Below are positions 14,847-37,868 of a stretch of DNA of 64,000 nucleotides, one piece after another; position 1 is the stretch's first letter; every line of letters starts with the position of its first letter. The notes under the pieces were generated by a model that was not told the origin of the DNA, did no database searches, and saw nothing but the letters and a program-made list of their open reading frames with translations. The stretch is from Vermamoeba vermiformis (taxonomy: Eukaryota). Where the stretch lies: positions 1-64,000 of the forward strand of contig JBEWZL010000239.1 of NCBI GenBank assembly GCA_045837725.1. The letters are read 5' to 3'. Both the position numbers and the translations under genes were made by a program.

Positions 14847-16940
14847 TTAATAGTCCTCCTCCCAATGAGGATCGTAATCACGGCCAATCATTGTGTTGAC
14901 GTACCAGTGATTCAGATCGCGCTTAGTGGATGTCGGAGGATCGAAGCCGTACTTGACGCGCGTTGTGGGTAACATGGTGGATAGCTCTAACATCTTGCTT
15001 TGTGATATTTGCTTCTTGTCCGCGAGCACGACAGAGTTGTTCACCAGATCTAATTCTTCCAGTTGTGTGAGTCCAGTCAAGTGAACTAGGCACTCCTCTG
15101 GCATCGAGTCGAGTTTTAAATGGCGAAGCGTCGAACATCGTTGTAAGTGTGAAAAAAACTGAGCTGTATCGTCTGGTCTCGAGGTGTAGGCATACTCTTC
15201 CGCGATAAGTCGAAAAGAGCGAATGTTAAACTTTGACCAATCCTCCTGACTGCCAAGCATGTCCATGTAGAAGTTGGGTACTACAGTGATCTCTTTGAGA
15301 GAGGGCGGTGCATTTTTGATCTGTGCTTGCTCAGCCCCATCGTAGACGAGCTTTTCTAAATTTACGGCACCTTGCAAATCGAGTGCCAGGGGCTGTTTAC
15401 AATGTATCACCAGCTTTTTGAGACGAGGCATTTCAACATTCCATTTGCCTTTGTCGGTATTCAGCGATACAGTCAACGAGACCAAGCGATCAAAGCAATC
15501 TTCAACGGTGATAGCTTGTTTGCTGTGCCACGTCAGTTTGGTTAGATTTGAGGCGCTTCTCAAGCCATTGATATTGTTGCAGCACAAATAAAGCTCCGTC
15601 AATGCAGGCAATTCGGAGGGTAGTGTCACCGTACCCCAGCAGTTGATAATTAAACCAGTTAATTTGGTCAACATTTCGTCGGGAAGTGGAGGTGGGGCCT
15701 CATTATTGCCCACATAGCGCACTCTGAAACGTGTTAGTTCAATTTATATTTGGATAAAAAGGGTGTAACTTACCCTAGCTTCTTCAGTTTACCAAATTTT
15801 GTTAGTGCGGTCACCTCGCTGCCCCGATTGGCAAAGCTTAAACGCAACTGTGTTAAATTCGACAAATTGGTTAACGAGGATAACTCGGAGATTCCCCTTG
15901 TTTGATCATCTAAATCAAGCTTGGTTAAATTTGTCATGCGGCCAATGCTAGCCAACATTACAGGATCCAACACCGGCTCTGTAGAATCAGATTTCCTGCA
16001 GTTCACGATAGAAAGACTAGCCAATCGAGACAGATTCGCTATCATTTGATGTGAAGGAAAGGATTTCGAGAGGATTCCTTTCAAAACCAACTTATTAAGA
16101 TTCTTCAAGTGGCGCAGAACATTGAGTTTAAGGCTCATTTTCTTAGTTCGGAACCACTGTGGCTTTGCAATAGTTACGTTGCTGCGCCAAATTAGACCAA
16201 GTCATTAGCCAAGCCAAAAACTTACGTGATACGTGGTGCTAGCATTTTGAACAGCCTTTTTGATGTGTAGAGGAATGAAAAAGTGTCCGGCCAAGCAACA
16301 ACGAAGGCGGCGATGCGACCGTACAACTCCTATAATATGTAAGTAAAGGATTCGAAGTAAAAGTATGAGTCCACATACAGGTAGCAGGGTCATGAAGGAA
16401 CCTTCAGCGCATTCGTCGCCCCAGTGATCGTCGCGACGACAATGAAAGCATGTGCGTACTGAGTAACAAAGTTATTAATCATCCTACGATTGGTATCTCT
16501 CCGTCAGTTACCTGAAAGCAAAGGCACTTTCAAAGGTGAAATTTTAAGCTTCAACGTTCGTCTTACGTGTTTGAATGCTTTTTGGGCTTCTTGCTCGTTG
16601 ACGAACCGCAAATAGATTCCTCCTAAAATAATTAGCAAACTCGCTAAGTTCAATAGATGCATTACCGTTCCTATTCTGTACGTTTTGTAGCTTGAACGCC
16701 CGCAAGTTAAAGATTGCCGATCCAATTTTCCAATTTGTTTCCTCTACCCAACAAATAATATTAATATTTGTGGATAATTTTTTAGATTATACGTGCTTAT
16801 GGTATATGCCACCGGTTCATTTGTTTGACTTTCCTAAAGATCCTGTCAATTTGTGGGTGCGATATCGAAGACCCTACCGAATCACTAGCATCGCTATCCT
16901 CTTCATCGGAGCTAAAATTAAGTGCAGCAAAGCGACTCAT
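14847..16940 (-). CDS. LRR protein with F-box-like segment, CCHC zinc knuckle and possible RRM-like N-terminus
   Basis: LxxLxxLxL repeats in 14847-16138; CFHCRRDDHWGDEC at 16409-16450; LLPxELYGRIAAFV F-box-like segment. Confidence 0.7.
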
Positions 16941-18937: not shown

Positions 18938-21425
18938 ATGCTATCTCGTGTTCTATCTCGCACTTGGCGTGCAACAACTTCACATTTAAGCCGATCAACC
19001 TCGCGGGTTGGATCGAGACAAGTCAAGCGCACCCTTCACACTAATAATGCCCAAAAATTAAATACACCACTAGCAAAAAAACTAATATTTTCCGGGTTAT
19101 TTGGCATGTCTGCGGTAAGTCCAAAATATCTTTGCCACGTAAAATTATCGAATATTAATAAACTGGGCCTTGCTGCATTAATTTAATGTTAATAATAATT
19201 TAAAATATTAGCTTTATGTTGCTAGCACAGCTTTTGCTGAAGACAATGAGCAGAAGAATGAGGAGAGCGAACAGAACGATCTTGACTTCTTTTTAGCTGA
19301 CGAGGACGATGAAACAAAATCAAATAAAGCAGAAGATGTAGCAGAGGAGAAGGACAAAAAGAAGAAGAAAAAGAAAAAGAAGAATAAGAACAAGAAGAAA
19401 AAATCGAAGCACGTGTCCGAAGAGGAATCCGTCGCGGAGACAGTGGAACCTGAGGAGCCAAACCCTGTCGACATCGCTGAGGATAAGCGCGATGACGAGG
19501 AGCTCAATGGAATTCTAAGATACAAATACTTAATTGTTGGTGGAGGTACTGCATCTTACGCGGCTATTCAAGCTATTCGGAAGGAAGATCCTGACGCTGA
19601 GGTAAGCTTACTAGTGACTTGAGTATTAGTTGCATATCATCATCGAGCATTTGTTTCGAGCACAACTATGTGCCAAGTGCTGTACTAACTTAGCTCGTAG
19701 ATCCTGATGGTCACTTCCGACGAACGCCCACCTTATCAAAGACCACCTCTCTCCAAAGAGCTGTGGTGGACTGAAGACGCAAATGTTGCACAAAACCTCA
19801 AGTTTACTGATTGGATGGGCAATGTCACCCAGTAAGTAACTGTGTTAGTATCATGCTCATGAACTGACTTTTAACAGCGTTGAGTACAAACACTTATCGG
19901 ATTATGCAGCAGACAGCAAAATTCGTTTAGTGTTGGGGCAGAACGTGAAGGATATGGATGCGTACCGCAAAGCAGCTCTTCTTGAAGATGGACGCATCAT
20001 CTTCTTTGAGAAGTGTTTGTTGGCTACTGGTGGCGAACCCAGACAATTGCCTGGCGCGCCCAAGCACCCGCACGTGACCACTTTCCGCTCTGTAAGTCAA
20101 GTGTATGGACTTACATTACATTATGCTTACTAACGGGACGTACGCAAGGTGCGCGACTTCCAAGATCTCGACGCTGTCACGCGGGATCCGAACGTTAAAC
20201 ACATCACTGTTGTGGGTGGTGGATTCTTAGGCACTGAGATTACTGCTGCATTGAATTCCCGTGCTAAAAAGGCTGGCTTTAAAGTTGCACAACTGTTCCC
20301 TGAACCTGGTAAGAGAACCTATCGGATCGAGTCATTTGATCTGACTCGTCACAGGTATTATGGCATTGAATGTACCCGCCTATCTTAGTGATTACGCCAC
20401 GAACAAATTACGTCAAGATGGTGTTGAAGTGCATACCGGCGTCGTAATCAAGAACTTTGAGGTAAACGACCAGAAAGCATTGACAAGCGATTCGTCAGGC
20501 TCGGAATCTGGTCAAGAGCCTCAAAGCCGCGCAGGCAACTTCACATTGACATTGTCAAACGACCAAAAAGTCCAAACTGACCACGTTGGTAAGTGTTAAA
20601 ATGAATGTTTTCAGATCTGTTATGGTCAGATTAATAATAGTTTTTTCATAACAGTCGTCGCTATCGGTATTAAGCCTAACACCCAGTTGGCTGAGTCAGC
20701 AGGTCTCGAGATTGACAAGAACAACGGTGGAATCGTCGTAAATCAAGAATTAGCAGCTCGATCTGACCTCTATGTGGTAAGTACTATTTAATTCACATCA
20801 ACTCCAAAATTGTGTACACAACCATAATCACATAACGCGGGAATATGTCCAAAAATAGCTCACATCAATCTCCTAGGCCGGAGATGTGCTCTCGTATTAC
20901 GATCCAATCCTTGGTCGTCGACGTGTCGAGCATTACGACCACGCCGATAACAGCGGCAGACATGCAGCTCTGAACATGACAGGTGCTCGCAAGGCTTACA
21001 ACTACATGCCCATGTTCTGGGGTGCGATGAACGGCATCCCTTACGAGGCTGTTGGTTTGATTGACTCAAAGCTCGACACTGTTGGAGTATGGCAAAGAGG
21101 TGAGTTGCATCGATAGTTGGCTGATATCTAACCGATCTCCTTAGGAGAAGACGAGAACGGCAGTGAGAACGAAGAACAAGGCGAGTACAAGAAAGGAATT
21201 GTGTATTACATGAAGAACAAGAAGATTGTTGGCGTGCTCTTGTGGAACTTGTTCAATCGTGTTGATGACGCTCGTCGTGCCATCAGAATTGGTCGTGAGT
21301 TTGACGACACGGAGAAGTTGCAACGCGTGATTGCTCTGGATGATAAGGATAAGGAGGAGGAAGACCGTCGCATGAAAGAGCTGAATGATCGCGACACACA
21401 ACAAGCTAAGACCGTCAAAGTCTAA
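18938..21425 (+). CDS. AIFM1: Apoptosis-inducing factor (mitochondrial FAD/NADH oxidoreductase)
   Basis: YLIVGGGTAS, PYQRPPLSKELWW, CLLATGG, VVGGGFLGTE, GRRRVEHYDHA, PMFW, YEAVGLIDS, VGVLLWNLF; mitochondrial presequence. Confidence 0.95.
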
Positions 21426-21498
21426 GACCAGTTCTGCGTGTAACAGATAAATAAAATTACTTAGAGGTTAAATTTACCTCAGCTCTGTCTAGTTCTTG

Positions 21499-24400
21499 AT
21501 GGAGTTGCCATCAGAGATTTGGGCAGCAATCTCAGGCGATTTGTCGGTGAGCGACAAGTGCTCGCTAAGTGCTGTCTGCAGATTAACGAAGCAAACAGTT
21601 TACAATGACTCATTTTGGCTTGATTTTGCTTTGAAAAATTTATTACGTGGCCTAACAATCGAGGAGATAATTGTTTTGGTGTTTTTGAAGGCAGATCAAG
21701 AAAGATTATCAAAAAGTCGAATTTCAAAAATTCAAAATTATCTCAAAATTAGCTATGACGCATCCATTGGTAAGTTAATGTTTTTTCATTAAATTCTAAC
21801 TCATTGGCAGATTTATCAGCAACACTTGCGAAGGAGGGTGCGATCTCGCCTTCGCTGATTAATCTTGGTGAGTATCGAGGAATTGCATGGCGAGAGTGGG
21901 CTAGTAACACGTTTGCATTCAATTTTGTGGCGTTGTTTTGCCGGCCGGAGACCCTGAATGTAAGCTCGAGGTGCTGTCGGATCCGTTTAAAAAGCCTTTT
22001 TTGTAGATAAAGGGCACGCTAGAGCAAAACGATATGAAAATGTTACTATCACGGCATGGAGAGGCAATTAAGCACTTCTCTTGGCGAGAAACTACATTCG
22101 TAATTGATTGGGACGTCACCAAATTGCTGCCTAACTTACAGAGCGCCATCTTGCCTGAATTCGTAGGTCTTGCTAACAATATGGAGCACTAACTAACGAT
22201 TACTTAAGATGAAAAATAATTCTTTTGCAAGCAGCCTGTCCACCTCGCTCACAAAGCTTGATATAACGACCAGCGGAGTCGTGAACCTGAGCTCGTTTAC
22301 TCGATTAGCGCAGGTAAAGTCTTGATTTATTCTGTTTGGCGACTAACGCGAATGTGTACAGCTGCGATCGTTCAAAGAAAGCGGCGGTGACGGACACTCT
22401 GATCTGCTTGTGTTTCTTCGTGCTCTTGGCTCGCAGCTGGAGAGTTTGAGTACGTACTTAATTGTACTCCTGTTGCAACGACTAACTTCTGTATTAGAAC
22501 TGATATCGCTCTCACAGACAGACGTTATTGTAGGTAGCGTAGCTGGCGATGCGTTCTAATTCTTTCGCAGGAATTGGGTCAATACTGCTCTCAACTAAGA
22601 TCGTTGCGTACATCCGAAGTCCAGTGTCCCGATACATTGTTCTCAGGACTAACAAACATCGCTACAAACAGCCCCAAGTTTCCAAAGACATTGCAAATAA
22701 AACACGAAGGAAAAAGAAAAGACCTCCTGCGCTACTTGGTGCTGAAAAATTCTTTACAGGTAAATCAAAAGAGCGACGCGCGCGATAACTAACTCATTCC
22801 TTAGCTTTTGGACATCGTTTGAAGAAATTAGTGCTTGAAAATATTGAGTGCTCAATTATAGAGCACATTGCGCACGCTACGAATTTGGTTCATTTGACCT
22901 TGACAACTGAAGACCCAAAGTCGAAGGTGGCTGACAGCTCAAATATCGTAGTGCCGCAAGTTATTGCACAGCTCAAGAAACTTGAGGATTTTACTTTAGG
23001 TAAGTTTGTTCTTGCTCGTTTTATAATACTTATCTCGGTATGGCAGCATTGTTCTCTGATTTTGAAGTGGAGTTGCATCACTCGCATCTTACAAAGCTGA
23101 ACGTCTTCGTTCGCCATAGTGTCATTAACATACCGTCGCTCATCCACCTCGAAGTACAGCGTGCTTCGGAATCGGTCCACCTGAGCAACTGTGCACTGAA
23201 GGTACTGTCGGTTGGCAGTGACGTGCGTCAATTCACCACTGTGGACGTAAATTGGAGTTCATTGGAGGAACTACGGTTTTACTCCAACCACTTAAACTAT
23301 TGGGGCTTTGTGGACAACTTGCCGAAGGACCTCGTCGCCAAAACTGCGCTGCACTCGAACGATTTAGCTTTTCGAGTGATTGATGTGAGCTCCTTACTCT
23401 ATTCGCACCTACAATTAATTCATCTATACTACATTGGCAGAACAAGTCGCTGATGCCTGAAAGGACAACCCTCGAATGGAGCCAGCTAGAGCTACTCTTC
23501 GAAAAGCCTCGCGTAATACCTCGTGAACTAATGCTGTACGGAGCCCCGAACGCGTTGATTGGTTATAAAATGCTCCTCGATAAGTTCAATGCCATTGAAA
23601 GTTTGGACTTCTGGGACTGCCAGGACATTACAACTGATGCTTTGGATATTCTTTGCAGTGGTAAGGTCATTTCGTTGTTTGACACTCAAAACTCCGCAGC
23701 ATCGTCTCAATCTTGGAGTAGGATTGCCGAATCTGAAGCAGATCGGATTCACCGAGTCACGCAACGTGGCTGCACCATTCAGTCACTTGAAACTTCACAG
23801 CAAGAGCTTGGAACTGATCTACTTGTATCACATTCACTCCGTGGAGACGAGCGACATTCAGTGTCCCAATCTTCGAACTATTACATTTGATAACGCTGGT
23901 AGAGTACGTTGAGTTCGGATCGTGTATCAAGTGGATTAATCGCTTTTACAGTACAATTTTCTAGAAGACGTGACCGACACCAACTTCTGCGAAATGACGC
24001 TACAACAACTGGGGTAATTCGTCTTTGTATTAATTTTCTTAAATCTAATGTATTATGCAGCGAAACAGATGCTTGCCCAAAGTTAATTAACTATGTGGCT
24101 TATCCGACGCAAACATACCTTGACTTGACAGATTACGCCTCCAAGGAGCCCACTAAGCCTGTTTTGTTGACGAGGATTCCTTCAGGCCTCACTGTTTTGA
24201 AACTGCATCTCAACTCGAACTTGGTCGCTGTGGATGTGGAGTCGGACGCGCTTCGGCAGTGTTCAATTACTTGCTGTCATTACTTGAGAACTATCAAATT
24301 GAAGGCGGACGTGCGTTCATTTGATATTGCCAACACACCGCTATTGGAGCACCTGACACTGGAATCAAAGGTAACGACAGATTTTGACTGTTCGGTTCTG

Positions 24401-25013
24401 ATACCTTTTAGCTGATACAAGACATTGACGTGCCGCATCTACAGTATGTCAAACTGGTGACACCAAAGTGAGTACCGTCTTCATTTTTGAATATAAACTA
24501 ACGAATGTCTAGCTTAAAACGGCTTTCCATATTCGCTCCGGCCTCGTATCACATTTTGGATAACTTGCAACACCTTGAAGAATTGAGCATCAGTAAGTAC
24601 ATTAGTTTGAGATTTATTAATTGGGACTAATCATTTCAGATGCGGAATCCGAGCTGTTTAGAATCAATGGCAAAGTATTCTTCACCAAGCTGTTCAATTG
24701 TTGTCCACGGTTGCGCGTCCTCGAGTGGCATGAAAAGTGCGTCGGAATATCAGTGTCGCACATAATGGCACTCAAAAATGCGTACAAGAAGCAACACAAC
24801 GTAGACATTGAGTTGCGTGGTCCTAAAGATCTGTTAGAGGCCGTGGAAAAACTCGAGGCACAACAAAAGCTGCCAGAGAAGAAACAACGCATGCTGAAAA
24901 TCAATGCACTGATGAAACGAACAATCAACAATTGGAAACAGAAACCAAAAGCGAAAGCATTTCGAGCGTGGCGTGATTATGCGTTGAGGGACAAAAAGCA
25001 TGATAAGAAATGA
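21499..25013 (+). CDS. F-box/LRR protein (paralog A)
   Basis: MELPSEIWAAISGDLSVSDKCSLSAVCR...NDSFW F-box followed by degenerate LRRs; colinear with the 31115-34650 gene. Confidence 0.85.
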
Positions 25014-25050
25014 TTTATTTAAGTTTAATAAAAAATGATCAGTTGATTGG

Positions 25051-28000
25051 TTAATTAATGGGACGAATGTATTTGTTGTAGTCCTCATCTTTGTTAGTCC
25101 ATTCGCGCAACACTTTCAAGTTTTTGTGGAGCGGTGAAATGTGGTCTTGAGGCGAGAGCGGCGAGATCGAACCGAAGTACGAAGAGGACAAATAGGGAGT
25201 AGCTGAAGTAACCTCGTCATCGCGGTACGCTGACACAGGATTAGTACTAATAGACGAACAGAACTCACTGAACCTACCATCGTATTTGAGCGAGAAGTTT
25301 TCAAGGTGATCCTTGACATCAGCGCGCTTGATCATGCCAACGAAGCCAGTCAAGTTCATCTTCTTCACGTGAATCACAAAGTTCTTGTCTTGTTCTTCAA
25401 GAGGTTGCAAAATTGACGTGCCGAACGCTTGTTGCAACAACTGCCAACAGTAAGTATATGCGGTGTCATACCTTATTATCAAATTTACCTTTTTAGTCAA
25501 TTCGTAGTAATCGTTGGGAGCCAAGTCGAACGATTGCCAGAAGCCAGGAATGGCAGCGGGTTTGAGGAAGGGGAAGATGCGATTCTGGACGTATTCAGTC
25601 ACCACTGGCTCGGCGTTGTTGATCGCTGCAGCCAAATCTTCCTTTGTCAAGCGGATGACATCGGTAGAGATGCTGGGCAGCTTGGAGCGTCGCGAGTACA
25701 ACATTTTGCTCAACGTTTCGCGCAAGTGGTTGGCGTTGTCAATGACACGACTTTGAACTTTTGCATCGTAACCCAACTGCAAGCCAAACACGCCAAAGAC
25801 TAAACAAAAGATGTTAGCACACGACAGGTAATCACGATAATTCCTTACCTCTGTACACAATGTTGTTCAAGTTTTGCGTGGGCTCGTTGATGATCTCGGT
25901 CAAGTGGCTTTCAAAGTAGTTGAGTTCCATGCGCTCCAATTCGACGGTCAAGCCCAGCAAAGCGTCTTCGGGAGAGATTTGCATGAAGTAGCTGCTGGAG
26001 AGACCAGGGCCTTGAATTCTACGGGCCACAAAGCTCCTGTTTTGCATGGGAATGCGAGCACGCGGCTTGATGATCGCCACGTACATGAAGAGGTCGTACA
26101 TGTAGCGCACGAGAGCCTTGATCGAGTAGCCAACTGTAATGGCCACACCGGCCACGGGGTGAGCTGCAAGACCAGCGACAAGTGCCAAGATGGAGCGAAC
26201 AGCACCTCCGAACACGATCTTGAGCAACAAGCCCAGCAAGGGGAACAAGGGTTGACGATTGAAATAGGGCTCATAGAACACAAATCTAAACAACTGCACC
26301 AAGGTCACAACAGTAGGCACCCAGGCCACAGAGGTGATCATGCCGAGAAGTGACACGACGAAGTTGACCAAAGTGGCTGTGGGCTGAATGACAGTCCAGA
26401 TCGTAGTGCCGAACAGACCCTTGAACACGTAGTTCCAAAGTCTGCACGCGTTAGTTTAAGTAACTTAAGACGAAGATGCTATCGACGTACCTGTTCAACT
26501 GACGCACGAAAGTTTTGCCCAAGAAACCAGTGTCAGGCTCAGCTTCAAATTGAGCACGTGACTTTCTGACGCTCTCCCAAATAGCGCGAATTCGTTCGGC
26601 GAAAGTCAGAATCTTGCTGTTCGGATCGCGCTGGAGTTCTCCAGTGAGGTAGTTGACTTCCCACAAAGGACAGAAAGGCTTGTTGTAGAACAACGCCTTC
26701 AAACCAAACGTAGCTACAATTGCGCGTTAGCTCAGCAATTGATCGATGCCACATTCATTGCACTTACAGTTGAGCATTGAATACACGAGCACCAGTAACG
26801 AATTGCTCCACCAAGTGGTGATGCGCTTGTAGTAATTTCTCCACACCCAGAACCACTGCTTTGTATTCGTCTCGGTGACTTCCCACTTCTCTGCATGATA
26901 GTAGCCGGAGTGGCTATCACGCTTGATTACCCAGTGTTTTGCTCTCCAAATATGGCGATACCAACTGAACGTGTAGGTCGGCAACGTGATCTTATTCAAT
27001 CTATTCGAGTCGCGTTAATTCTATCATAATGTCATCAATTACATTAGAAGTGTAACGTACTCTTTCTCTATGGCCGCTTTGAACTTTTGATCGCGCACTT
27101 TGTGCAAAAAGAAGCGCAAGAAGAAGGCTTGTTGTTTCCAGCCGTTCTGGTCAAAGATTTTCAACGCTCGCTCGTGCACCTCCCACTGGTACTGTTCGGT
27201 CACTCGCGCGAGTTCTTGGCCGACTTTCTTCTCGATCCACGAGTTGATGCGTGATCTGATGGGATTGTTCTTCACCAGATTCTCTCGATAGACGCGAATC
27301 TTTTCTTGAACTTCAGTGTCAACTTGAGCTGTCACTGTGAAGATAGCGCGCACGGCTAACAAGTGTTGGATGAGTTCCTCAGCCTCGCCCTTGTTCTTGA
27401 ACTCCTTGCGGATCTCTTGCAATATCAGCTCTGTGTTCTTCTCCACAAGCTCATCAGCCACGCGGGTCTTGACAGCCTTCAATCGTTCGTCGCGTGCCGC
27501 TTCGGTCTCGTTTTCAACGACAGGCAGTTCAGCCACGTACTGTTCGTACAATTTTTTGCCAAGGGCACGACGTTCAACGCCCCATGCGTTGTTTACGCGA
27601 TTAAAAGTCGCCTCCATTCTTCTGCTGGTCTGCGCAGCGTTAGAATTGGAGCAAGAGAGGCGTGAGGGTAACGTACCTTGTTGAAGTGGATCCAAGGGCC
27701 CATATGAAACACGAGCGAGGGATCTTCTTTGCTCTTGTACACCTCAAGTTCAGCAGGGTCCTCTTGCAGCTCTTTGAATAGCAACACTTTGAGTGCACTT
27801 TGTGTTTTTTCATCCATCTCATACGAGGGGTACTTAGGGCTGGACAGAACGGATTAGAACCGCGCAACAACACTAGATGAACAGCTTACTAAGAGCTTGG
27901 CACACCAAGGAACAAGTTGAAAATGTCGCGGAAGGCCCGGAATCCGTAACGAATACCACCGATAATGCTGAACGATTCCGCACTTAAAAGACGAGTTAGA

Positions 28001-28913
28001 AGGCTGATATTACATTGGTATAGAGTAGGATTCACCTAGTATTGAAAAAGCGAGCAGGCATTTGAATGGCAAATTGGTTGACCGTGTAGGCGAGGCCTTT
28101 GTACCACGAGTTGCGAATGTTGTCCACACCGGCAATCAACAAGGGAGTGATCAACCAGACGTGCTTCTGCTCGGGAAATTTCTTGCTCTGCACGGAGAAT
28201 GTGCCTGTAGCCCAGAGCTCGTGGCGTTGCTCTTTGGTGAGGTACTAAAGTGGATTTAGTAAGTTCATGAAATTGGTAGCAAAAATAGAACAAGACTTTA
28301 AAATATCAAAATAAATTGAAATTAAGCACCAGTTCGAATATTTTGATGCATTCGCGTGCTTCGAAATGAATATTGATTTTTACGGATTTATCTTTGGTTA
28401 CCTTCTGTTTACCGTTCGCGTCGCGAGCTACTTCGTCCAATTCATCGAAATTAGTATTCACAACATATCGTGAGCGAAGGTCTTCACTAGCCTTTTCGTC
28501 GGCAAAGGCGGTGGGAGGCAATCTGATCGACAGGTATTTCCAGAGCCACACCTCGGTTGCAAACAAATGCTCAATTTGCTTCACTACCTCTTCTTCAGCA
28601 TTGTTACGGCCAGCGACCTGAGAATTTAAAGATCAAATCGAATTTAAAAATAGAATCCGGCAGGAAATTTTAAGTGCCAACAATTTAGCTTTACATCGCG
28701 ATAATTATGTAATACGTTATGCTTACATCGTCATTGGGTCTGATGATACTTGGGTCAACTGGTATTTTCTCTCGGTTCGGATCGTACACCTCCTGAATTT
28801 ATGATTAGCTTCGTTCCTAATTCGTGAACTATCGACCACACTATTTTATTCCAATAGCAGTATATCTTTATATATATAATATTTACCTTAGGAACTTGCA
28901 CTGCGCCTTCCAT
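25051..28913 (-). CDS. Large hypothetical protein with coiled-coil region and hydrophobic/TM segments
   Basis: Long spliceable ORFs with strong codon bias; Trp-rich FSWYRHIWRAKHW, FEAEPDTGFLGK and RARIP...ARRIQGPGLSSSYF blocks. Family not recognised with certainty. Confidence 0.75.
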
Positions 28914-29136
28914 GGTGTTGTGTCCAAAATTTTTAATGAAACTGAGGAGTTCAACCGTGTCAGCATCTTAACGGCTGCGTATTTCGGAATTGCAAAAAGA
29001 CCTTAAAATAAGGAACAATGGGAACGGGTGATATTCCAAAGTGAAACAGAATTCCTGAATTTTTGTGCGCATCCGATTTTTTTTTGTTGTTAAGACAACC
29101 ACAGCTCGACATAAACACTGCGCGAATTAAATTATC

Positions 29137-30967
29137 ATGGGTGACAAAATGGAACTTGATAGCGTGGAAATCAACTCCGAATCCAGCGAGAAAACAGAGG
29201 AGTTGTCAGATGGCGAGTGGGCGGCGCTAGAAGCGGCCGAAAAAGAAGCTATCGAGAAATTCAAAGACCAAGACAACAATAATAACAAATCTAACGATAA
29301 TAAGCGACATCCTGCTTCTTTAGAAGAAGATCAAAAGAAGATGTCGCTTGTCTTTGAAGAGCCCGTGGAGGAAGAGGACGATTTCTTTCAAACAAATAAT
29401 AATCAACCAGAATCAGGCGTGAGAACACGGCAAACGACATCAGCACAGAACTCTGGAAAGAATTTTCTATTTTATTCCGGTAAATAATAACCGTTACAGA
29501 TCTGCCCAAAAAAATCTAAATATTTGTATCACTCTGCGAAAGAGATTTTCATATTTATTATCAGGAAAAATCAAATCAATGCCCAGTGGTGATTATCTTG
29601 ACAACATCCACAAGCGCTGGTGGTATAATTACGACTTATTAGAGCAATTTCACGGGTATGTATATTTAAATATACGTGTTATATTAGATATTAGCGACCG
29701 GATCCGAATTTAGACGGAATGCCATAAATCATGCGGGATCTGAATATTTTCTACTTCCTTAGGTATATTCAATGGCTATTTCCTGTCTTCGAATCAAGTG
29801 GCATGAATTCAATGTCTGCCGCGCTATCAAAACACGAAGCTAAATTAATTAGAGAAGATTTTTATGCGGCCGTTCGGGTCATCACTTCCTATAGGTAAAA
29901 AATTCCAATAATAATTTAACAATAATCATTAATACTCATCATTTTCAGAATGATGTTGAATTTCTACGGCTTGAGATTGGTCGATGAAATGACTGGTGAA
30001 ATTGAACGGTGTCCGCACATTTGGCAGAACAGATACAAGAATCTCATTGAACACCCGCATAACTTTTTGAGAATTAGTGAGTATAATTATTTATAATATT
30101 TTGACCCGGACTCTAATATTATTACAGACCGCATTTTGACGAGCTTGGGTCACTTGGGATTTTCACGTTACAAACGACCTCTGGTGCGTCATTTCGAGAT
30201 TGAAATTGACGAGAATGGATTGCTGCACTCGTGCAAGAAATCACTCGATAAGTTCTGGAAACAGACTTTGGAAGTCAACAGCAAAGAGTACGAACAACAC
30301 TGCTGCTATAAAGAGGGCTCGTATTAATTGCATTTGTCTTGTAGGTATTATTTGAAGACCAAAGAAGCGCCCGAAGATCGTACGGAATCAATATTCTTCC
30401 ATCACTTGCACAATCAAACGGACATGTACAAAGCCTACCAAAAGCATTGCGAAATTTTCACGCGTAATCACGTAAGCTCTCCATTCGCAAGACTCGTGTT
30501 ACGAGAAAGCTCACCTAAGTTTCCTTTTTAGGCAAAAGACAAAGAGGAGAGCGATGAAACTGAGAGTTTGTCGTGGAGAAAATATGAAGAGCGAATGAAA
30601 CGAGCCAATCACGACATTGCACTGATCAACAATCAACACACGACAACTAAGCGGAACAATAACGAAAATAATACGAACAAAACAAATAATACTAACAGTA
30701 AGAATAAGACCGCTAATGATCCTAAACAACGAAGGTAATATTAATGTTTCGAAAGTTGTTCAAAGCACCAAATAATTGCAATTTTTTGACGCTCTTAATG
30801 GTAGGTTGGATGAGATGTTCAAAGGCAAATCGACCAAAAATAACAACGATGACGATGAAGATGGTGAGCCCATGTTGAGAAGTGGACGAGGACGTGCTGC
30901 AAATAGCAAACCTCCTGCAGCTGGTGCCAAGAAATCTCCTCGTGGACGAGGCAGAGCCAAAAAATAA
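29137..30967 (+). CDS. Opioid growth factor receptor (OGFr) conserved-domain protein
   Basis: YDLLEQFHGYIQWLFP, YRMMLNFYGLRL, HPHNFLRINRILTSLGHLG. Confidence 0.9.
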
Positions 30968-31114
30968 AACACAGTAGTGATGCGTAACTTTGCGTACAAA
31001 GCGAGGGCCATGCATGCAATAGTTAGCAACAACTTGCGTTGATTTCTGTCAGTTTAAGTTTGCTAGCAAATGAAGAGGTAGTACCTCGTGCAGATTGTGA
31101 AGCAGAAATTTATT

Positions 31115-34100
31115 TTAGAAATTGATGTCTTTGTTTGACAAGTGATTAACTTGGAGCTTTTTGTTGTGCATTGTTTCGAACTTGCGCTGAACTTCATCCA
31201 AGAGAGGTGTTTTAGCGCAGCACCATGTCAACACCGTTAATTGCGGACAAGACGACAACAACTTGGCGAATAGAGTTGCTGCATCAAACTTCTGGTCAGA
31301 TTCATTCTCTCGGCCTCTATTTTTGTCGTTATTCTCATCGGTGCCATCATTGGCATTATTCTCGTCATCTTCCGTTTGATAAGTCTTCTGCTGTACTTCT
31401 TTCACGGTAAGTTCTTCGAGGGTTGCGAGGCGTTCGAAAAAATCGTAGGTGATTGGGCACACAATTGACAGCTCTTTTAGCCTTGAATGAACATGTTAGT
31501 AATAACTCATATTTGCAGCGAGGGCAATTATCGTACTTTGGAGTGTACAGCTCGATGTGTTCAATTTGTGAGCAAATGTCCAATGTCTTCAGAAGCTGGA
31601 TGGATGTAATGATTAGTCAACCAATACAGGTGCACATAACTCACTGTAGATTCAAGGAACAATGATTTTAAGGGCGCATCGGTCGAGAATCGGCGCAAGG
31701 GCGCTTTGATTTTGACACGTGTCAAGTTAAGGCACCCATCGAAACTCGCTTCGGTCAAATTGTCAGACTCGAAGTCAACCTCGACCAAGTTCATATTCAA
31801 ATATAGACGCTGGAATTGCAGCTGGGACGGCACTCTTGTCAATTTAACTGCACGGTGGTTAGGTCTTTCATTTCGAAAGAAGCAACAAACAACTAACCCG
31901 GCTTCGTTGGTCGCTTTAAAGTGTACATGCCATCAGGGTAGGTTTGAGTAGGATACGCTGAGTAGTTCAACAAGTTGGGACACGAGTTTGTTTCACTGAA
32001 ATTGATAAAATTAGAGCAAACCGAACAGTACTTTGACTACTGACCCGATCAGTTGCAGTGTAGCTTCGCACAGATTAGTGTTCGTGACGTCATTAAGGAG
32101 GTCGTACTATTAAGTGTTAGTTCAATATAGAGCTCTTTTTGTTTTTGCTTCTCTGCTTCCAAATGGTACATACTCTGCCATCGTTGTCAAAGGTGATGGT
32201 ACGAGCATTAGGACACTGAATGTCGCTCGTCTCCACGGAGTGAATATGATACAAGTAGATCAGTTCCAAGCTCTTGCTGTGAAGTTTCAAGTGACTGAAC
32301 GGTGCATTCACGTCGCGTGACTCGGTGAATCCGATCTGCTTCAAATTCGGCAATCCTGACACACTGTCAATCACAAGAACGTTTGACTATCGATCAATCG
32401 GTCCGATTTACCTTTGCACAGTATATCAAGTGCCTCAGCAGTGATGTTAGCACAGCCGTAGAAGTCGAGGCATTCAACCGAAGGAAATTTCGCTACCAGC
32501 AACTCGTAATACCGCAAGTCAAGCGGAGGTCCCTCAAGGGTCAGTTCTCTAGGTTGAGCAACATAATCTACGTCAGCGGGCTCCATCATTTGCTGCTGCG
32601 TAATTTTCACGGTCGGTGGCATTAGGGATTGATTCTGAACATTACGGTTAGTTTGCGTTCAACAGATGCTCCTTTGACATACTTTTGTGGCTCTGAAAGG
32701 CAAATCTACGTCTCCAGTGACACATCCTTTCTTGAGCACTACATCAGCAGGCATTTTGTCCACGAGCAACCAAAACACTGGCACTGTATCGTTGTCCATC
32801 GTTACTGTCAATGACTCGAGAGCAGACCAATCGACATTCATCGCTTCATGCAGACCTGTCACAGGAGTGGCAAAATACAGATGTTTCAAAGCACAGCTCT
32901 TAATGCCAAAAACGCCCTTGAAGACGCGAAGGTCAACGAGTGCTGGTGTGTCGATGATCGAGTCCGCAACTCGGAGCTGCAACTTGGTCAAGTGTGGGTG
33001 CGTGAGGTTGATTCGGTGTGGCGTTGCCAGTTCTGTAACTTGTTAGCGTTCATGAACCTAGATAAGGCAAAAATAGTCATACCCAAGTCAAGCTCGAGAA
33101 GCTTTGAAAGCTGAGCAATAACGTGCGGCACAGTGATGTTCGCTGCACCATTCTTATTCGAGGGCTCGTCAATGACCTTCAGTTCCAGTTCAACGAGATT
33201 GGTGGCGTACACAAGATGTGCCACGTGTGAGTACGCCAAGTATTGTAATTTGAGCTTCAACAAACGAGAGCCAAAGTCTATGAAAGTACGTTAATATTAA
33301 GGAGCAAGCAGGAGGGTAGACGCGTACTTTGAAAGAAAAACGAACTGTCTTCACCAAAACCAAGTGACCCAATTATTCCCCGACTTTGGAACCGTCTTAG
33401 TTTCAATTTTTTGGGGAACTCCGCGCTGCTTTTGGCAAGCTTGGACAGTGTTTCGAACACTTTCTTCGGGTACTCTTTCTCCGCTGTTAATCGCAAGCTA
33501 TGCAATTGCTTACAGTGCTTCGCTAGGCTCTAATTAATGTTGTACTTAGCAATAGAATATTAAATTTTCTGAATTCATTCACTTGCATTCATATCGGCTT
33601 TGGACATGTTCGCCAATCCTGCGACACGAGCATTAGTATGGCCCATTATTACAGTGTATTTCAATCGTACCTAGACTTTTTAAATTGGGTCCTAATGCTC
33701 GAAGCAACTTCTCTTTCTCATCGTAACTACAGTAAGAAGTGTCTTTCAGCTTCGTTAACTGAAGAATTGTTAGTTAGATTTTTTGATTATTATATAGCAA
33801 TATGAATACATTAGTCATAGAAGTAAGCATGTTTAGCTGCCCGTTGTCGATATCGAGAGTGAGAGCATGTAACCGCGTCATATTTTGCGACATCGATTCG
33901 AGTACCTAAAAAAATCAAATAAATACTGCATACTTCCTTATATCACAGACGACGTACTGAGCTCTTGAATTCACCAGCCAATGCCTTGAATTTTTGTAAA
34001 TTAGGCAGTGCCTTGCTCAAATCATCGCAATTTACTCCGAAAGAATCGTTGCGGTACGTCAAGTCAGTTATTGAAGTGCCGTGAAGCTCCCATAACATTT

Positions 34101-34650
34101 CAATTTCCTCCTTGTCGCCTTTAAGGGCCTATTGTGATATTAATTGGAAAGTCGGTTGCTCGTAACTTACTGTAAGCTTTACTGGACGGCAAAATAGAGC
34201 GACGAAGTTGCATGAGAATTTGTAGGTACCCCACTCGCGCCACGAAATGCCGTTATAGCTGCCAAAGCTGATTTCTGACGAGGGTTTTGATGCTTCTTTA
34301 TTGATAATTGCTGGAATGTCTGGATGCGAATGTTTAATTGAAAAAGGAATTATTTATTTATTTATTTCAAAGATCCTACCGATAGACGTGCCATATTTGA
34401 TTTTTAAATATTTTTGAATTTTTGAAATTCGACTTTTTGATAATCTTTCTTGATCTGCCTTCAAAAACACCAAAACAATTATCTCTTTCACTGTCAGTCC
34501 TCTTAATAAATTTTTCAAAGCAAAATCAAGCCAAAATGAGTCATTGTAAAGAGTTTGTTTGATTGCTCTGCCTGTCGTCAGAAATGAACACTTGTCGTTC
34601 ACTGGCAAGTAGCTCGCGATGTGCAACCATATTTCTGCTGGTGTATCCAT
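31115..34650 (-). CDS. F-box/LRR protein (paralog B)
   Basis: MDTPAEIWLHIASYLPVNDKCSFLTTG...NDSFW plus LRRs; similar exon layout to paralog A. Confidence 0.85.
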
Positions 34651-34893
34651 TAGAAGTCAGCTACAATGATGCCGCGTTCATTTTGTGTCAAAGAGGTGCC
34701 ACAGAACGTGTCCCAAACCTGCGAAAAATGAACGAACAATTGTCCTGCCATAGTGAAATTGTACGAACACCATCTTTTCGAGAAGATATTAGGAAGTACT
34801 ATAATTCAATGATGCTACTTTCAAGTTAATGTATTTACCTTTCTATTTACACTTCTCTTATTAAATATAACTTATATAATACAACTATATAAT

Positions 34894-37868
34894 CTAATTA
34901 ATGCCTTGCGGTCTGCCAGTGATCATTTGTGGCTGATTTCTGAACTGTAAATGCTTCGCGTATTCATCGTTCGATTGCACCATCTTGCTCAACAGCTCAT
35001 CAAATGAATGTGCTGCCATTCTACGAAGATCCTTGTAGCTGCAATAACAGTTGTTAAAACAAGTTAAAAACGTGTTATTTCAGCCGTACCTGATGAACAG
35101 AGTTGTCTTCTGATCTCTGCTCGTCAACAAGACTTTCTCATCCACACCAGCGTCAAGCTTGTTGAGCGCATTAATAACATGCGCAAAATCAATCGATGGA
35201 GTGCCGTCCTCGTACACTTGATGGAACACAAAGTCACGGAACAATTTCAAGATGTATCTGTCTTCTGTTTCCGACCAATTGGCAGACTGTTCGAATTCAG
35301 GTCGTTCGTTAATGAAACCTAATTTGACGAGCAGTCTGAACATGCGTCCATTCTCGAGCTCTTTCATGAGATCATTTTCCAAGTCATCGCAAGTGCTGTA
35401 AGAGCAATTAGTATACGTTTCCTGAGCTAATCTGTGTCATACTTCTGAACTCGATCGAGGTGCTCAAGTATTTTTCCGCTGATAGATTGACAAATGTCAT
35501 TGATGATAGGACTTTGGTTCGCTTCAACAGGCTTTGTCTCCAACAGCTTTGCAATTAAATTACGCAACTCTGCACTGTACGTGCTCTCGACGTGTTCCAA
35601 GGCTTTTGCGACTTGCTGCAAGGCCAATAATGACCGGTGACACAACACCAACAACAACTTGCCGAAGCACTTCAAATCTTCCGCCTGTCAAGTGTTAGCA
35701 CAAGGCTGGTATAATTGGTCATCAGGGCATACCTGGGCTTGAGCGATGTGCTTTTTACTCGCGAGATCTCGGCTCAACAGCTCTTCAATGCCGGTCCAAT
35801 TGATGCGAACACGACACTTTCCGCTGATGAGTACTTTCGAAGGAAAGATTCGGCACGATAGTCCTGCGGCGTGAATAGTGCGCAACGCCGAGGCTATTTG
35901 AACAGTAATGGACCACAACACATCTTCTGGAATAACTGTCTTTTCTTGTTCTCCGGTCGAGCGTAAAAACCGTTCATCGAGTGTGTCAGCGCCAGGGTAA
36001 TAATCGTACGCCAAGTACAATGCTGGACCAACGTTAAATTCTGCGAAGTTGTATGAAGTCGTTAGCAAGTACTTACTATTTACATTGTCAAACGCGTTAC
36101 TCGCGAACATCTCTCGTAGTGGCACGATATTCGAGTGACTGAGCTGCTTCCAAGCCTCAACACACTGCACTGCCGACTCGTGCAAGCGAATGCCATCAAT
36201 TTTCCTGTGAAAGATTAGTCCAGATACATTAAATAGGCTCAATGAGGGCCCTACTTCAGTGCGTAACATCTACCATCAGCTGCGCTAGCTTTGAAAGTCA
36301 GAGTTCGCAAGCCAAATACTTTCGAGACATTCTCGTCGCGTAGATTTTCCAGAGGATACAAACTGTGATATCGATGGAGGGTGCGCGGGAGTGAAGCTGT
36401 TTCGGGGTCTGTACGCAAGGGTTAGCTTCAGTATCAACGTCAAGATAAGCACTTGCCATCGGGTGAAGTGCCCTTCAACATCAATTCACTGCGGCGCTGC
36501 AGCTCTTTCTTCAAATCATCTGATATGAAGAAACTGACTGGACGTCGTGGCATGGGCTGTGATAGAACTGCCGCTGGTCCCGGCAAAATAAACATCGTCG
36601 GATGTGGTACTGGATTCGGCATAGGATGTTGTGGAGGCATGTAGAAGTGATTGGGGTATTCACCGTGAGGGTGCTAATGCTTTGATTAGATACTAAATCA
36701 AATTGAAGCATGTGACTTACCATATTTGGATCTTGAAAGTGGATCACGCCATTAGGCTTCAAGCCGTTCATATACGGTGAATGATTCAACGACCCAACGG
36801 GACTGGAGCCATTAATAGGACTAGGGCTCATGCTGTGATATTGACCTGGGGGGCTACGACTAACCATCACCGGTGCGTGTCGACTGGGTGAATAAGGTAT
36901 CGGCACAATTGGTTGTAATTGCATGGGACTGGCGTGCCGCGGTGAGTGCAAAGGCGACGGGTCCCGTGACTGTCTTTGACCTAAAGTTGATTCATCAATG
37001 ATGTACTCTGGTCGTGCTACTCCATCGAACATACCCGGTCGAAACTGCGGGGAGTGTTCGTTGACGGGCGTCAATTCGATACTTGGTACGGGCGATGAGC
37101 TCGCGGTAGACTTGGGGCTGCCATCTACGAATTATTAGCATGCACAGTAATTCATTAAATGGTTTACTGTCTTACCTAATGATGTTGATTGCATCGCGTG
37201 AGTCAGGGCGGATCTGAATTAATTAGTGTTTGCAAATAATAATGATACTATATATGAATGTATTACAACTCATGCTCGCCATTAGCCTCGTTTCCAGTCT
37301 GAAAAATATGAATTTTGCGTCAGAAAATTGAAGCAAATTTGATTTTTTGAACTTACAGGACCGTGATAATATTCACATCCTCGATTTTGATATTTACAAT
37401 AGCCATACGTAGCCACATTTCTACACGGCCGTTGAGATTTTGGTACTAAAATTGATGATAAATTCAGTAAAATCAACTTTAAATTTCTCCTTCCATCAAA
37501 GCCGTAACTGATCTATATTGTATTGCTATCTAGACTTAACCGCAAGAAATTGAAATTGCAACACGATCAAAGAATAAGAATGTGAAATATCTTTTTTTCG
37601 ATTTTTTTGAATTATTATTACGGGTAGTTTCGGGAATGGGATTTTTACCTCCGTAGCCATTCGGATGAGTAATATTTATGAATTTTGAATCACCAGCAGG
37701 CTGCACGTGTTGAAAACTGCAGTAATCCCCGTGGTTGCATACTCCACTTTGTGCATAATAGCGACAAATTCTAATACAGAAGTAAATGTAAAGATTGAAT
37801 GTACCAAAGTATTCAAATTTAGTATTATAATGACATTATTCGGAAACTTACTGGGTTGAAGTATTCAT
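34894..37868 (-). CDS. PAN3: PAN2-PAN3 deadenylase subunit PAN3
   Basis: Two CCCH fingers (CRYYAQSGVCNHGDYCSFQH; CRNVATYGYCKYQNRGCEYYH), pseudokinase HSNIVPLRE/YDYYPGA, and ELENGRMFRLLVKLGFINERPE...WSETEDRYILKLFRDFVFHQV. Confidence 0.95.

What the first reader, a model, noticed from the sequence alone, without database searches (positions are those of the whole stretch)
21499..34650. Inverted, diverged F-box/LRR paralogs with exact identity islands: conversion tracts or an inversion switch
Seen: the genes face each other around a ~6-kb two-gene core and most exons are only moderately similar even as protein. Yet 21599-21645 = rc 34504-34550 (47/47), 21664-21737 = rc 34412-34485 (74/74), and 23778-23866 = rc 32211-32299 (88/89, with 29 more identical bp at 23734-23762). 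Synonymous sites are included, while flanking introns are unrelated. Inference: the islands are in-frame inverted repeats at equivalent positions, so crossover in either would flip the internal segment and make intact chimeric F-box proteins with swapped LRR blocks, a shufflon-like diversifier of E3 substrate specificity. Recent gene conversion or shared exonic regulatory or small-RNA target sites are alternatives.
Basis: partly seen in the sequence, partly recalled or inferred. Interest (0 to 1): 0.7.

Follow-up and report, generated by a model that had tools for sequence, protein, structure and literature searches.

The report
Gene-conversion islands in inverted F-box paralogs
Two old, tail-to-tail copies of an F-box gene share four short, letter-identical stretches that are best explained by ordinary copy-and-paste repair (gene conversion) between the copies, not by a built-in DNA flipping switch.

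Summary
My hand-built gene models give two convergent 16-exon F-box genes that are 48% identical as protein. Synonymous divergence is saturated outside the islands and near zero inside them. Where both copies have the same amino acid, the codon is identical in 75 of 76 cases in the exact blocks against 109 of 293 outside the islands. The flanking introns are no more alike than shuffled sequence.

The island letters are not conserved in relatives. RNA reads of a divergent relative and a metagenome homologue use other synonymous codons. I found no Rfam match, no unusual RNA fold and no recombinase.

The best reading is recurrent short-tract interlocus gene conversion, confined to the most protein-constrained segments.

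One open point remains. An ORF from another public assembly (P0001) joins the 5' end of gene A to the body of gene B, switching inside the 47-nt block. That is what a crossover inversion would produce, and also what a repeat-induced misassembly would produce. No same-strain raw reads were available to decide. A programmed, shufflon-like switch is unsupported.

The parts
21499..25013 (+). Gene A, an F-box gene with 16 exons (hand-built model). As assembled it needs a 1-nt frame correction in exon 7.
   Evidence: The GT-AG model was guided by homology to B. Pfam F-box PF00646 scores 24.7 bits against a cut-off of 20.5, and F-box-like PF12937 scores 26.6 against 24.3, both on exon 1.
31115..34650 (-). 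Gene B, the paralogous F-box gene, with 16 exons and a clean 914-codon reading frame.
   Evidence: F-box-like scores E = 2.6e-4, at 21.1 bits below the 24.3 cut-off. The first 12 introns lie at homologous positions. One intron is specific to B and one to A.
21578..21772 (+). Island 1, A arm (3' part of exon 1). It covers the end of the F-box and a family-conserved segment just downstream.
   Evidence: Inverted pair I2, 195 nt, 87%. pS is 0-0.3 here against 0.6-1.0 in the flanks.
34377..34571 (-). Island 1, B arm.
   Evidence: An independent metagenome contig covers it with 0 differences (record 11).
21599..21645 (+). Exact block 1a (47/47 with 34504-34550). It contains the A-to-B switch point of the chimeric ORF P0001.
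21646..21663 (+). An 18-nt diverged patch between the two exact blocks (10/18 identical, two amino-acid differences, and even synonymous codons differ).
21664..21737 (+). Exact block 1b (74/74 with 34412-34485).
23720..23909 (+). Island 2, A arm. It corresponds to exon 11 (23722-23903) plus the splice-site letters.
   Evidence: Inverted pair I1, 190 nt, 91%.
32168..32357 (-). Island 2, B arm. It corresponds to exon 11 (32355-32174).
23734..23762 (+). Exact block 2a (29/29 with 32315-32343).
23778..23866 (+). Near-exact block 2b (88/89 with 32211-32299; the single synonymous mismatch is at 23831).
25014..31114 (.). The 6.1-kb core that a crossover in either island would invert. It holds a Lips-family gene on the - strand (about 25054-28632) and a second gene on the + strand (about 29131-30967).
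   Evidence: Pfam PF25228 matches three exon ORFs with E = 8.7e-12 to 1.7e-54. Spliced contigs with CT..AC joints are seen in run X8. ORFs are listed.
22709..22724 (+). A-rich run in exon 7 of gene A. Here the homology-supported frame changes by one base, which is either an apparent frameshift or an assembly indel.
   Evidence: The start of the exon matches B in one frame and its end matches in another. Downstream, 615 codons remain open.

Best explanation
The two genes are old duplicates: synonymous sites are saturated, intron sequences are unrelated, and each copy has one private intron. They sit tail-to-tail 6 kb apart. In two short exon segments the copies are kept letter-identical by recurrent, short-tract, non-reciprocal homologous repair, that is, interlocus gene conversion between inverted paralogs. 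The likely mechanism (inferred) is that a break in one copy is repaired from the other copy wherever enough identity remains. Identity remains only where strong protein constraint has slowed divergence: the segment just after the F-box and the exon-11 repeat unit. Each conversion then resets those segments to identity, so the process sustains itself. Tracts stop at unrelated introns and at small patches where the paralogs have diverged in protein sequence. That explains why there are four blocks of 29-89 nt and not one long block. A crossover outcome of the same recombination would invert the core and swap gene parts. This may have happened at least once in a related strain, but it would be a by-product and not a programmed switch. 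The identity pattern, the synonymous-site statistics and the non-conservation in relatives are shown. The recombination mechanism, its recurrence and its direction are inferred.
For: 1. Synonymous divergence (pS) is 0.0-0.3 in 20-codon windows inside the islands and 0.5-1.1 in most windows outside. Overall pS is 0.72 and pN is 0.36.
2. Identical codon given the same amino acid: 75/76 in the blocks against 109/293 outside (p = 3.6e-16). The five longest identical-codon runs all lie in the islands, and the run of 26 was never reached in 20,000 permutations.
3. The letters are not constrained as such. In raw RNA reads of a divergent relative (X21), every read covering exon 11 differs from the window at six or more positions inside block 2b (23793, 23813, 23817, 23852, 23859, 23860) and at 23876-23887. 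The 30 letters upstream use other synonymous codons. In the metagenome homologue L001 only 3/11 and 8/16 same-amino-acid codons in blocks 1a and 1b match the window, against 14/14 and 24/24 between A and B.
4. The islands coincide with the most conserved protein columns of the family (invariant columns; relatives).
5. Introns flanking the islands are unrelated, so tracts end where homology ends.
6. Block lengths of 29-89 nt are at or just below the 50-200 nt where surviving tracts are reported to cluster. Conversion is documented between adjacent inverted paralogs and in the fog-2/ftr-1 pair (PMC3966223, passages read).
7. There is no Rfam family in the window, no exceptional RNA fold in the islands (z = -1.36 and -0.08) and no recombinase or transposase.
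Against: 1. I could not compare both paralogs within a second species. The classical proof of concerted evolution (paralogs cluster within a species for the island only) is therefore missing. The relative's reads look like a single gene with allelic SNPs.
2. The saturated 18-nt patch between two exact blocks requires either two separate short tracts or selection against converting the two differing residues. A single simple event does not explain it.
3. The islands are also the most protein-constrained parts, so some of the identity comes from purifying selection.
4. P0001 shows 18/18 A-type sites followed by B-type sequence. A crossover, not a conversion, would produce this if the contig is real.
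5. The gene models are hand-built and have no same-strain RNA support. Gene A carries an apparent frameshift.
Confidence: 0.72

Rival explanations
1. Flip-flop inversion polymorphism. Crossovers within the islands repeatedly invert the 8-13 kb between them, so both orientations (and the chimeric A/B genes) exist among strains. The identity islands are then the conversion footprints of those crossovers, as at the yeast chromosome XIV flip/flop region.
For: P0001, an ORF from a 2869-nt contig of another public assembly, is A-type at all 18 of 18 diagnostic residues in positions 2-34. It is then B-type at positions 54-55 and 85-88, and continues through B's intron 1 and exon 2. The switch falls inside exact block 1a. 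A metagenome contig (X5, record 11) matches B from 34072 up to exactly 34550. Its remaining 108 letters do not continue into B's 5' end as the window does. The geometry allows in-frame exchange. A precedent is in print (PMC9731477; abstract and section 10 read).
Against: Both chimeric contigs switch exactly where a short-k de Bruijn assembly must branch, so a misjoin explains them equally well. The X5 contigs come from a k = 31 assembly, which is shorter than the 47-nt block. This k value is recalled and comes from no call. No reciprocal product (B 5' end joined to A body) was found in the protein collection (1 candidate, a distant relative). No strand-changing joint appeared among the 15 joints listed, although 20 more were not shown and no same-strain raw reads exist. 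The identity blocks are 29-89 nt against 4 kb in yeast, so crossover should be rare. Position 80 of P0001 is A-type within B-type context, which suggests mosaic conversion and not one clean exchange.
Confidence: 0.17
2. Nucleotide-level function. The blocks are shared exonic regulatory elements, such as small-RNA targets, splicing enhancers or RNA structures, and selection on the letters themselves keeps them identical.
For: Identity includes synonymous sites and falls into discrete blocks separated by a diverged patch. Exon 11 is the only part of either F-box gene that reads of the divergent relative could be laid on at 85% likeness.
Against: Relatives encode the same peptides with different synonymous codons. 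There is no Rfam match in the window. Island folds are not more stable than shuffles (z = -1.36, -0.08), while one of two control exon stretches scores better (z = -2.81). That exon 11 can be laid is expected from its protein conservation alone (pN about 0-0.06).
Confidence: 0.05
3. Assembly or polishing artefact. Reads from one paralog were used to correct the other in already similar segments, creating false identity.
For: The window comes from one assembly. Gene A has a suspicious 1-nt frame problem in an A-run, so small assembly errors are possible.
Against: An independent run from another study (X5) has a contig with 0 differences that links both island-1 blocks and the B-type patch to 340 nt of B-specific sequence. 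P0001, from another assembly, has the same peptide across both blocks. The sharp block edges coincide with amino-acid differences.
Confidence: 0.03

Closest known systems
Interlocus (ectopic) gene conversion between adjacent paralogs, e.g. the C. elegans fog-2/ftr-1 pair and the inverted hsp16 modules (review PMC3966223; passages read)
   Same: Short tracts of identity (means of 58-133 bp reported for fog-2/ftr-1; surviving tracts cluster at 50-200 nt) lie inside otherwise diverged neighbouring paralogs. The tracts are largely exonic, and the review argues that faster-diverging introns may impede conversion. It is known to occur in both direct and inverted orientation.
   Different: Here the background divergence is far higher (saturated dS, 48% protein identity; fog-2/ftr-1 have about 28% synonymous divergence). 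Conversion therefore survives only in two islands. No population or between-species data are available here to show donor and recipient.
Saccharomyces chromosome XIV 'flip/flop' region (PMC9731477; abstract and section 10 read)
   Same: Paralogous genes form an inverted repeat at the ends of a multi-gene segment. The repeats are homogenised within a genome, and crossover between them inverts the segment.
   Different: In yeast the repeat is about 4 kb and almost identical, and both orientations are documented in many strains. Here the identity consists of four blocks of 29-89 nt, and the only hint of the other orientation is one chimeric ORF that could be a misassembly.
Bacterial shufflons and other programmed inversion switches (features recalled, not read here)
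   Same: Inverted repeats lie in frame within coding sequence, so inversion would swap protein parts.
   Different: No site-specific recombinase was found. The repeats are ordinary homologous coding segments and not short dedicated crossover sites. The host is a eukaryote with spliced genes. There is no evidence that both states occur in one population.

Membership tests
Interlocus gene conversion / concerted evolution of paralogs | Segments whose silent-site divergence is far below that of the rest of the paralog pair | tested here: met
   pS is 0-0.3 in the islands and about 0.7-1.0 elsewhere. Identical codons number 75/76 against 109/293. Run-length permutation supports it.
Interlocus gene conversion / concerted evolution of paralogs | Segments are identical within a genome but differ between species (paralogs cluster by species for the tract only) | tested here: inconclusive
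   Relatives differ from the window at silent sites in the islands. No second genome with both paralogs could be obtained: scans found nothing, and one search gave one single-gene contig.
Interlocus gene conversion / concerted evolution of paralogs | Tract lengths within the reported range, ending where homology ends | tested here: met
   Blocks are 29, 47, 74 and 89 nt. Flanking introns are unrelated. The reported range of 50-200 nt comes from PMC3966223.
NAHR inversion polymorphism flanked by homogenised inverted paralogs (yeast flip/flop type) | Both orientations found among strains or species | tested here: inconclusive
   Chimeric ORF P0001 fits the inverted state, but the contig DNA could not be fetched. 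No same-strain raw reads exist.
NAHR inversion polymorphism flanked by homogenised inverted paralogs (yeast flip/flop type) | Long, nearly identical inverted repeats at the segment ends | tested here: not met
   Only 190-195 nt at 87-91%, with exact blocks of 89 nt or less. The rest of the genes is about 56% identical at the nucleotide level.
Shufflon / programmed DNA-inversion switch | A dedicated site-specific recombinase encoded at or near the locus | tested here: not met
   No recombinase, integrase or transposase Pfam family was found in 14 exon/ORF translations of the locus or in 59 ORFs of 110 aa or more elsewhere in the window. Split (spliced) genes could be missed.
Shufflon / programmed DNA-inversion switch | Both orientations coexist within one clone or population | not testable with these tools
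   The only raw reads (X21) come from a divergent relative. The other runs are short-k contigs that cannot bridge exact repeats.
F-box protein (SCF substrate receptor) | An N-terminal F-box domain | tested here: met
   Gene A: PF00646 scores 24.7 bits (cut-off 20.5) and PF12937 scores 26.6 (cut-off 24.3). Gene B: PF12937 scores 21.1 bits, below the cut-off, E = 2.6e-4.
F-box/LRR (FBXL) subfamily | A leucine-rich-repeat solenoid C-terminal to the F-box | tested here: inconclusive
   There are only sub-threshold Pfam hints: LRR_4 with E = 0.031 on exon 11 and LRR_Zer-1 with E = 0.046 on exon 8. A simple LRR motif count was 9 and 5 against shuffle means of 5.4 and 4.4. The AF2 model of exon 9 (pLDDT 69.3) gave no Foldseek match with E <= 0.001 (best 0.88), though most weak rows are LRR proteins. 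The spliced protein could not be submitted whole.

The most novel reading that the evidence does not exclude
The inverted paralog pair is a natural flip-flop cassette. Rare crossovers in the two conversion-maintained islands invert the 8-13 kb core and reassort the promoter/F-box end, the middle repeats and the C-terminal repeats of the two substrate receptors. Up to four gene configurations would then segregate among strains as standing variation in E3 specificity. P0001 would be the first observed recombinant.
Probability: 0.12. Interest if true: 0.6.

Novelty: new member of a known kind. Interest (0 to 1): 0.3.

Why it matters
This is a clean small-scale example of how gene conversion can persist for a very long time between otherwise saturated paralogs. 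It survives only in the segments where protein constraint preserves enough identity, and it stops at introns and at residues that distinguish the copies. Such islands bias divergence-time estimates and can seed misassemblies. They also supply the substrate for inversions that make chimeric genes. If the chimeric ORF from the second assembly is real, the locus would be a eukaryotic case of modular reassortment of an F-box receptor by inversion, which could be tested with a few PCRs. Otherwise it is ordinary concerted evolution.

Tried and rejected
**Genome and earlier notes**
- No whole genome is held for this window, so other family members outside the 64 kb could not be sought. Inside the window, tblastn finds only the two copies.
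- Earlier-findings look-ups returned nothing.

**Sequencing runs**
- No RNA holder was listed for the window's own strain.
- The runs labelled with the same species name, X21 (raw RNA reads) and X24 (contigs), proved to be a relative that is mostly under 95% alike. They could not test for chimeric mRNAs, the frameshift or the gene models in this strain.
- Contig runs cannot bridge exact repeats. One contig ends its match exactly at 34550.

**Relatives' DNA and protein searches**
- Fetching the DNA behind P0001 failed. The genome-contig scan matched 194 pattern stretches with none confirmed. The metagenome-contig scan with alignment A1 matched 556 stretches with none confirmed.
- The second metagenome scan, with P0010, gave one 3127-nt contig (L001) holding a single distant homologue and a non-syntenic neighbour.
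- The exon-11 protein search found no candidate.
- The whole-library search with exon 1 gave only 7 proteins with E <= 0.001. Four of them (E <= 1e-10) are relatives' exon-1 ORFs.

**Other tools**
- The protein atlas gave no usable hit for the core gene.
- The PDB sequence search with exon 13 gave one irrelevant weak hit, E = 0.14.
- The automatic intron-finding scripts over-fitted and were replaced by hand-curated models.

**Explanations rejected**
- Codon bias as the cause of identity: the background rate of identical codons is 0.37, so the chance that all 76 block codons match is about 2e-33 (75 of the 76 do).
- A structured RNA.
- A wider inverted duplication of the neighbourhood: apart from the two island pairs there are only chance-level matches of 20-24 nt.
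Full report
**Observation.** The repeat finder groups them into two inverted pairs, 21578-21772/34377-34571 (195 nt, 87%) and 23720-23909/32168-32357 (190 nt, 91%). Nothing else in 20000-36500 exceeds chance-level matches of 20-24 nt. Probes from each island hit the 64-kb window exactly twice, against 0 expected. tblastn with both proteins finds only these two gene copies in the window.

**Anatomy.** The window is a gene-dense eukaryotic region with introns of 41-67 nt that mostly carry a CTAAC-like branch site. I built both gene models by hand from GT-AG sites and mutual homology, because the automatic attempts over-fitted (then 11-13, 17).
- Gene A runs 21499-25013 on the + strand. Gene B runs 34650-31115 on the - strand. 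Each has 16 exons.
- The first 12 introns lie at homologous positions. B has a private intron (31897-31848) and A has a private intron (24593-24639).
- B is a clean 914-codon frame.
- In A's exon 7, the start matches B in one frame and the end matches in another. The change falls in an A-rich run at 22709-22724, and the 615 codons downstream are open. This is either a very recent frameshift or a 1-nt assembly error.
- Exon 1 carries an F-box. It is above the Pfam cut-offs in A and just below in B.
- The LRR label is only weakly supported by my tests: Pfam E = 0.03-0.05 on two exons, a motif count near the shuffle level, and an AF2 model of exon 9 with pLDDT 69 whose Foldseek rows are mostly LRR proteins but none better than E = 0.88.
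- The 6.1-kb core holds a Lips-family gene (PF25228) on the - strand and a second gene on the + strand.
- The gene ending at 21425 lies upstream of A, and a PAN3 pseudokinase gene lies upstream of B.

**Is it more than chance and protein constraint?** Yes.
- The proteins are 413/866 (48%) identical.
- Overall pS is 0.72, which is saturated. In 20-codon windows it is 0.0-0.3 inside the islands and mostly 0.5-1.1 outside.
- Among codons where both copies have the same degenerate amino acid, the codon is identical in 75/76 cases in the exact blocks, 90/110 in the islands and 109/293 elsewhere (Fisher p = 3.6e-16).
- The five longest runs of identical synonymous codons (26, 17, 14, 11, 11) all lie in the islands. 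In 20,000 permutations the mean longest run was 7.8 and the maximum was 21.
- Introns 1, 10 and 11 align no better than shuffles.
- The islands are mosaics. In island 1 an 18-nt patch (21646-21663; 10/18 identical, two amino-acid differences, with synonymous codons also different) separates the 47- and 74-nt blocks. In island 2 a 15-nt patch with two amino-acid differences separates the 29- and 89-nt blocks, and the last 37 nt of exon 11 are again diverged at silent sites.

**Are the letters themselves under selection?** The evidence says no.
- The raw RNA reads labelled with the same species name (X21) turned out to be from a divergent relative: 258 of 266 laid reads are under 95% alike.
- Those reads cover exon 11, and every read differs from the window at 23793, 23813, 23817, 23852, 23859 and 23860 inside block 2b, and at 23876-23887. 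The 30 letters upstream of 23771 encode a similar peptide with other synonymous codons.
- This divergence is of the same order as in the neighbouring conserved gene: about 30 fixed differences listed over 20912-21365, with more not shown.
- In the only relative's DNA I could fetch (L001, a 3127-nt metagenome contig), 3/11 and 8/16 same-amino-acid codons in blocks 1a and 1b match the window. That is about the background rate, against 14/14 and 24/24 between A and B.
- No Rfam family matches anywhere in the window.
- The islands do not fold better than shuffles (z = -1.36 and -0.08). One of the two control exon stretches folded better (z = -2.81) and the other worse (z = +0.88).
- At the protein level the islands are the best conserved parts of the family (invariant columns; relatives' ORFs).

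**Best explanation.** Recurrent short-tract interlocus gene conversion between the inverted paralogs.
- It is confined to the two segments where purifying selection on the protein has kept enough identity for homologous repair.
- It is bounded by unrelated introns and by small patches that differ in amino acids.
- Block lengths of 29-89 nt are at or just below the 50-200 nt where surviving tracts are reported to cluster. Conversion between adjacent inverted paralogs and in the fog-2/ftr-1 pair is documented (PMC3966223; passages read).
- What is missing is the classical proof: both paralogs from a second species.

**The inversion idea.** A crossover in either island would indeed invert the core and give in-frame chimeras. 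I found no support for a programmed switch. No recombinase or transposase family appeared in 14 translations of the locus or in 59 long ORFs elsewhere, and there are only two repeat pairs, which are ordinary homologous coding segments.

One result does keep an occasional inversion alive.
- The protein collection holds a 169-residue ORF (P0001) from a 2869-nt contig of another public assembly.
- It is A-type at all 18 of 18 diagnostic residues in positions 2-34. It is B-type at 54-55, A-type at 80 and B-type at 85-88. It then reads through B's intron 1 and exon 2 with a few strain differences.
- The switch lies inside exact block 1a.
- A crossover inversion predicts exactly this. So does a misjoin at a repeat in a short-k assembly.
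- The same ambiguity shows in run X5. A 587-nt contig matches B with 0 differences from 34072 up to exactly 34550, and its other 108 letters do not continue into B's 5' end. I could not read those letters.
- No reciprocal product was found, but it might simply not have been assembled or called.
- No strand-changing joint was among the 15 joints listed. Twenty more were not shown, and no same-strain raw reads exist.
- The nearest documented analogue of the inversion reading is the yeast chromosome XIV flip/flop region, where 4-kb homogenised inverted paralogs drive recurrent inversion (PMC9731477; abstract and section 10). The repeats here are some 50 times shorter.

**Artefact check.** The X5 contig comes from a different study. 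It links both island-1 blocks and the B-type patch to B-specific sequence without a single difference. P0001 carries the same peptide across both blocks. I rate polishing-induced identity as unlikely. A's copy and island 2 lack equally direct independent support.

**Verdict.** This is a new member of a known kind, namely concerted evolution of islands in inverted paralogs. It is of modest interest unless the chimeric configuration proves real.

Noticed in passing
window 22709-22724 (gene A, exon 7): The homology-supported reading frame of gene A changes by one base within an A-rich run. Read as assembled, the frame stops five codons into exon 8, yet the 615 downstream codons are open in the shifted frame. 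This is either a very recent frameshift (a truncated or pseudogenised A in this strain) or a 1-nt assembly error.
   Followed up: partly
P0001 (169-residue ORF from a 2869-nt contig of another public assembly); corresponds to window 21499-21645 joined to 34503-34144: A chimeric ORF. It has the 5' end of A (18/18 diagnostic residues), then B-type exon 1 remainder, B intron 1 read through, and B exon 2. The switch lies inside the 47-nt exact block. It is either a real recombinant or a misjoin at the repeat.
   Followed up: partly
window 34072-34550 (run X5, record 11): A 587-nt contig from a water-metagenome run matches B with 0 differences and stops matching exactly at the outer edge of block 1a. 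Its first 108 letters lie elsewhere. This could be the same A/B chimeric path or simply a graph branch.
   Followed up: no
window 20500-35700 (runs X21 and X24): Runs labelled with the same species name as the source are mostly 85-95% alike to the window. The label therefore covers clearly diverged lineages. A water-metagenome run (X5) holds both the window's strain (0-difference contigs) and a divergent relative, whose 4948-nt contig has the gene that lies upstream of A.
   Followed up: partly
window 31848-31897 (B) and 24593-24639 (A): Each paralog has one private intron: B within the exon that matches A's exon 13, and A within the region that matches B's last exon. All other intron positions are shared. 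This shows intron gain or loss since the duplication.
   Followed up: partly
window 25013-25054: The stop codon of gene A and the 3' end of the Lips-family gene on the opposite strand lie only about 40 nt apart, so the two 3' UTRs probably overlap.
   Followed up: no
window 15773-16201 (- strand): An ORF with a Pfam LRR_R13L1-DRL21 match (E = 5.6e-7). It is another LRR-type gene 5 kb upstream of gene A, and tblastn at 1e-3 detects no relation to A or B.
   Followed up: no
L001 607-1720 (- strand): The distant homologue's contig carries a different upstream neighbour on the opposite strand, a long ORF with no counterpart next to A or B. Synteny with the window is therefore not conserved at that distance.
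   Followed up: no
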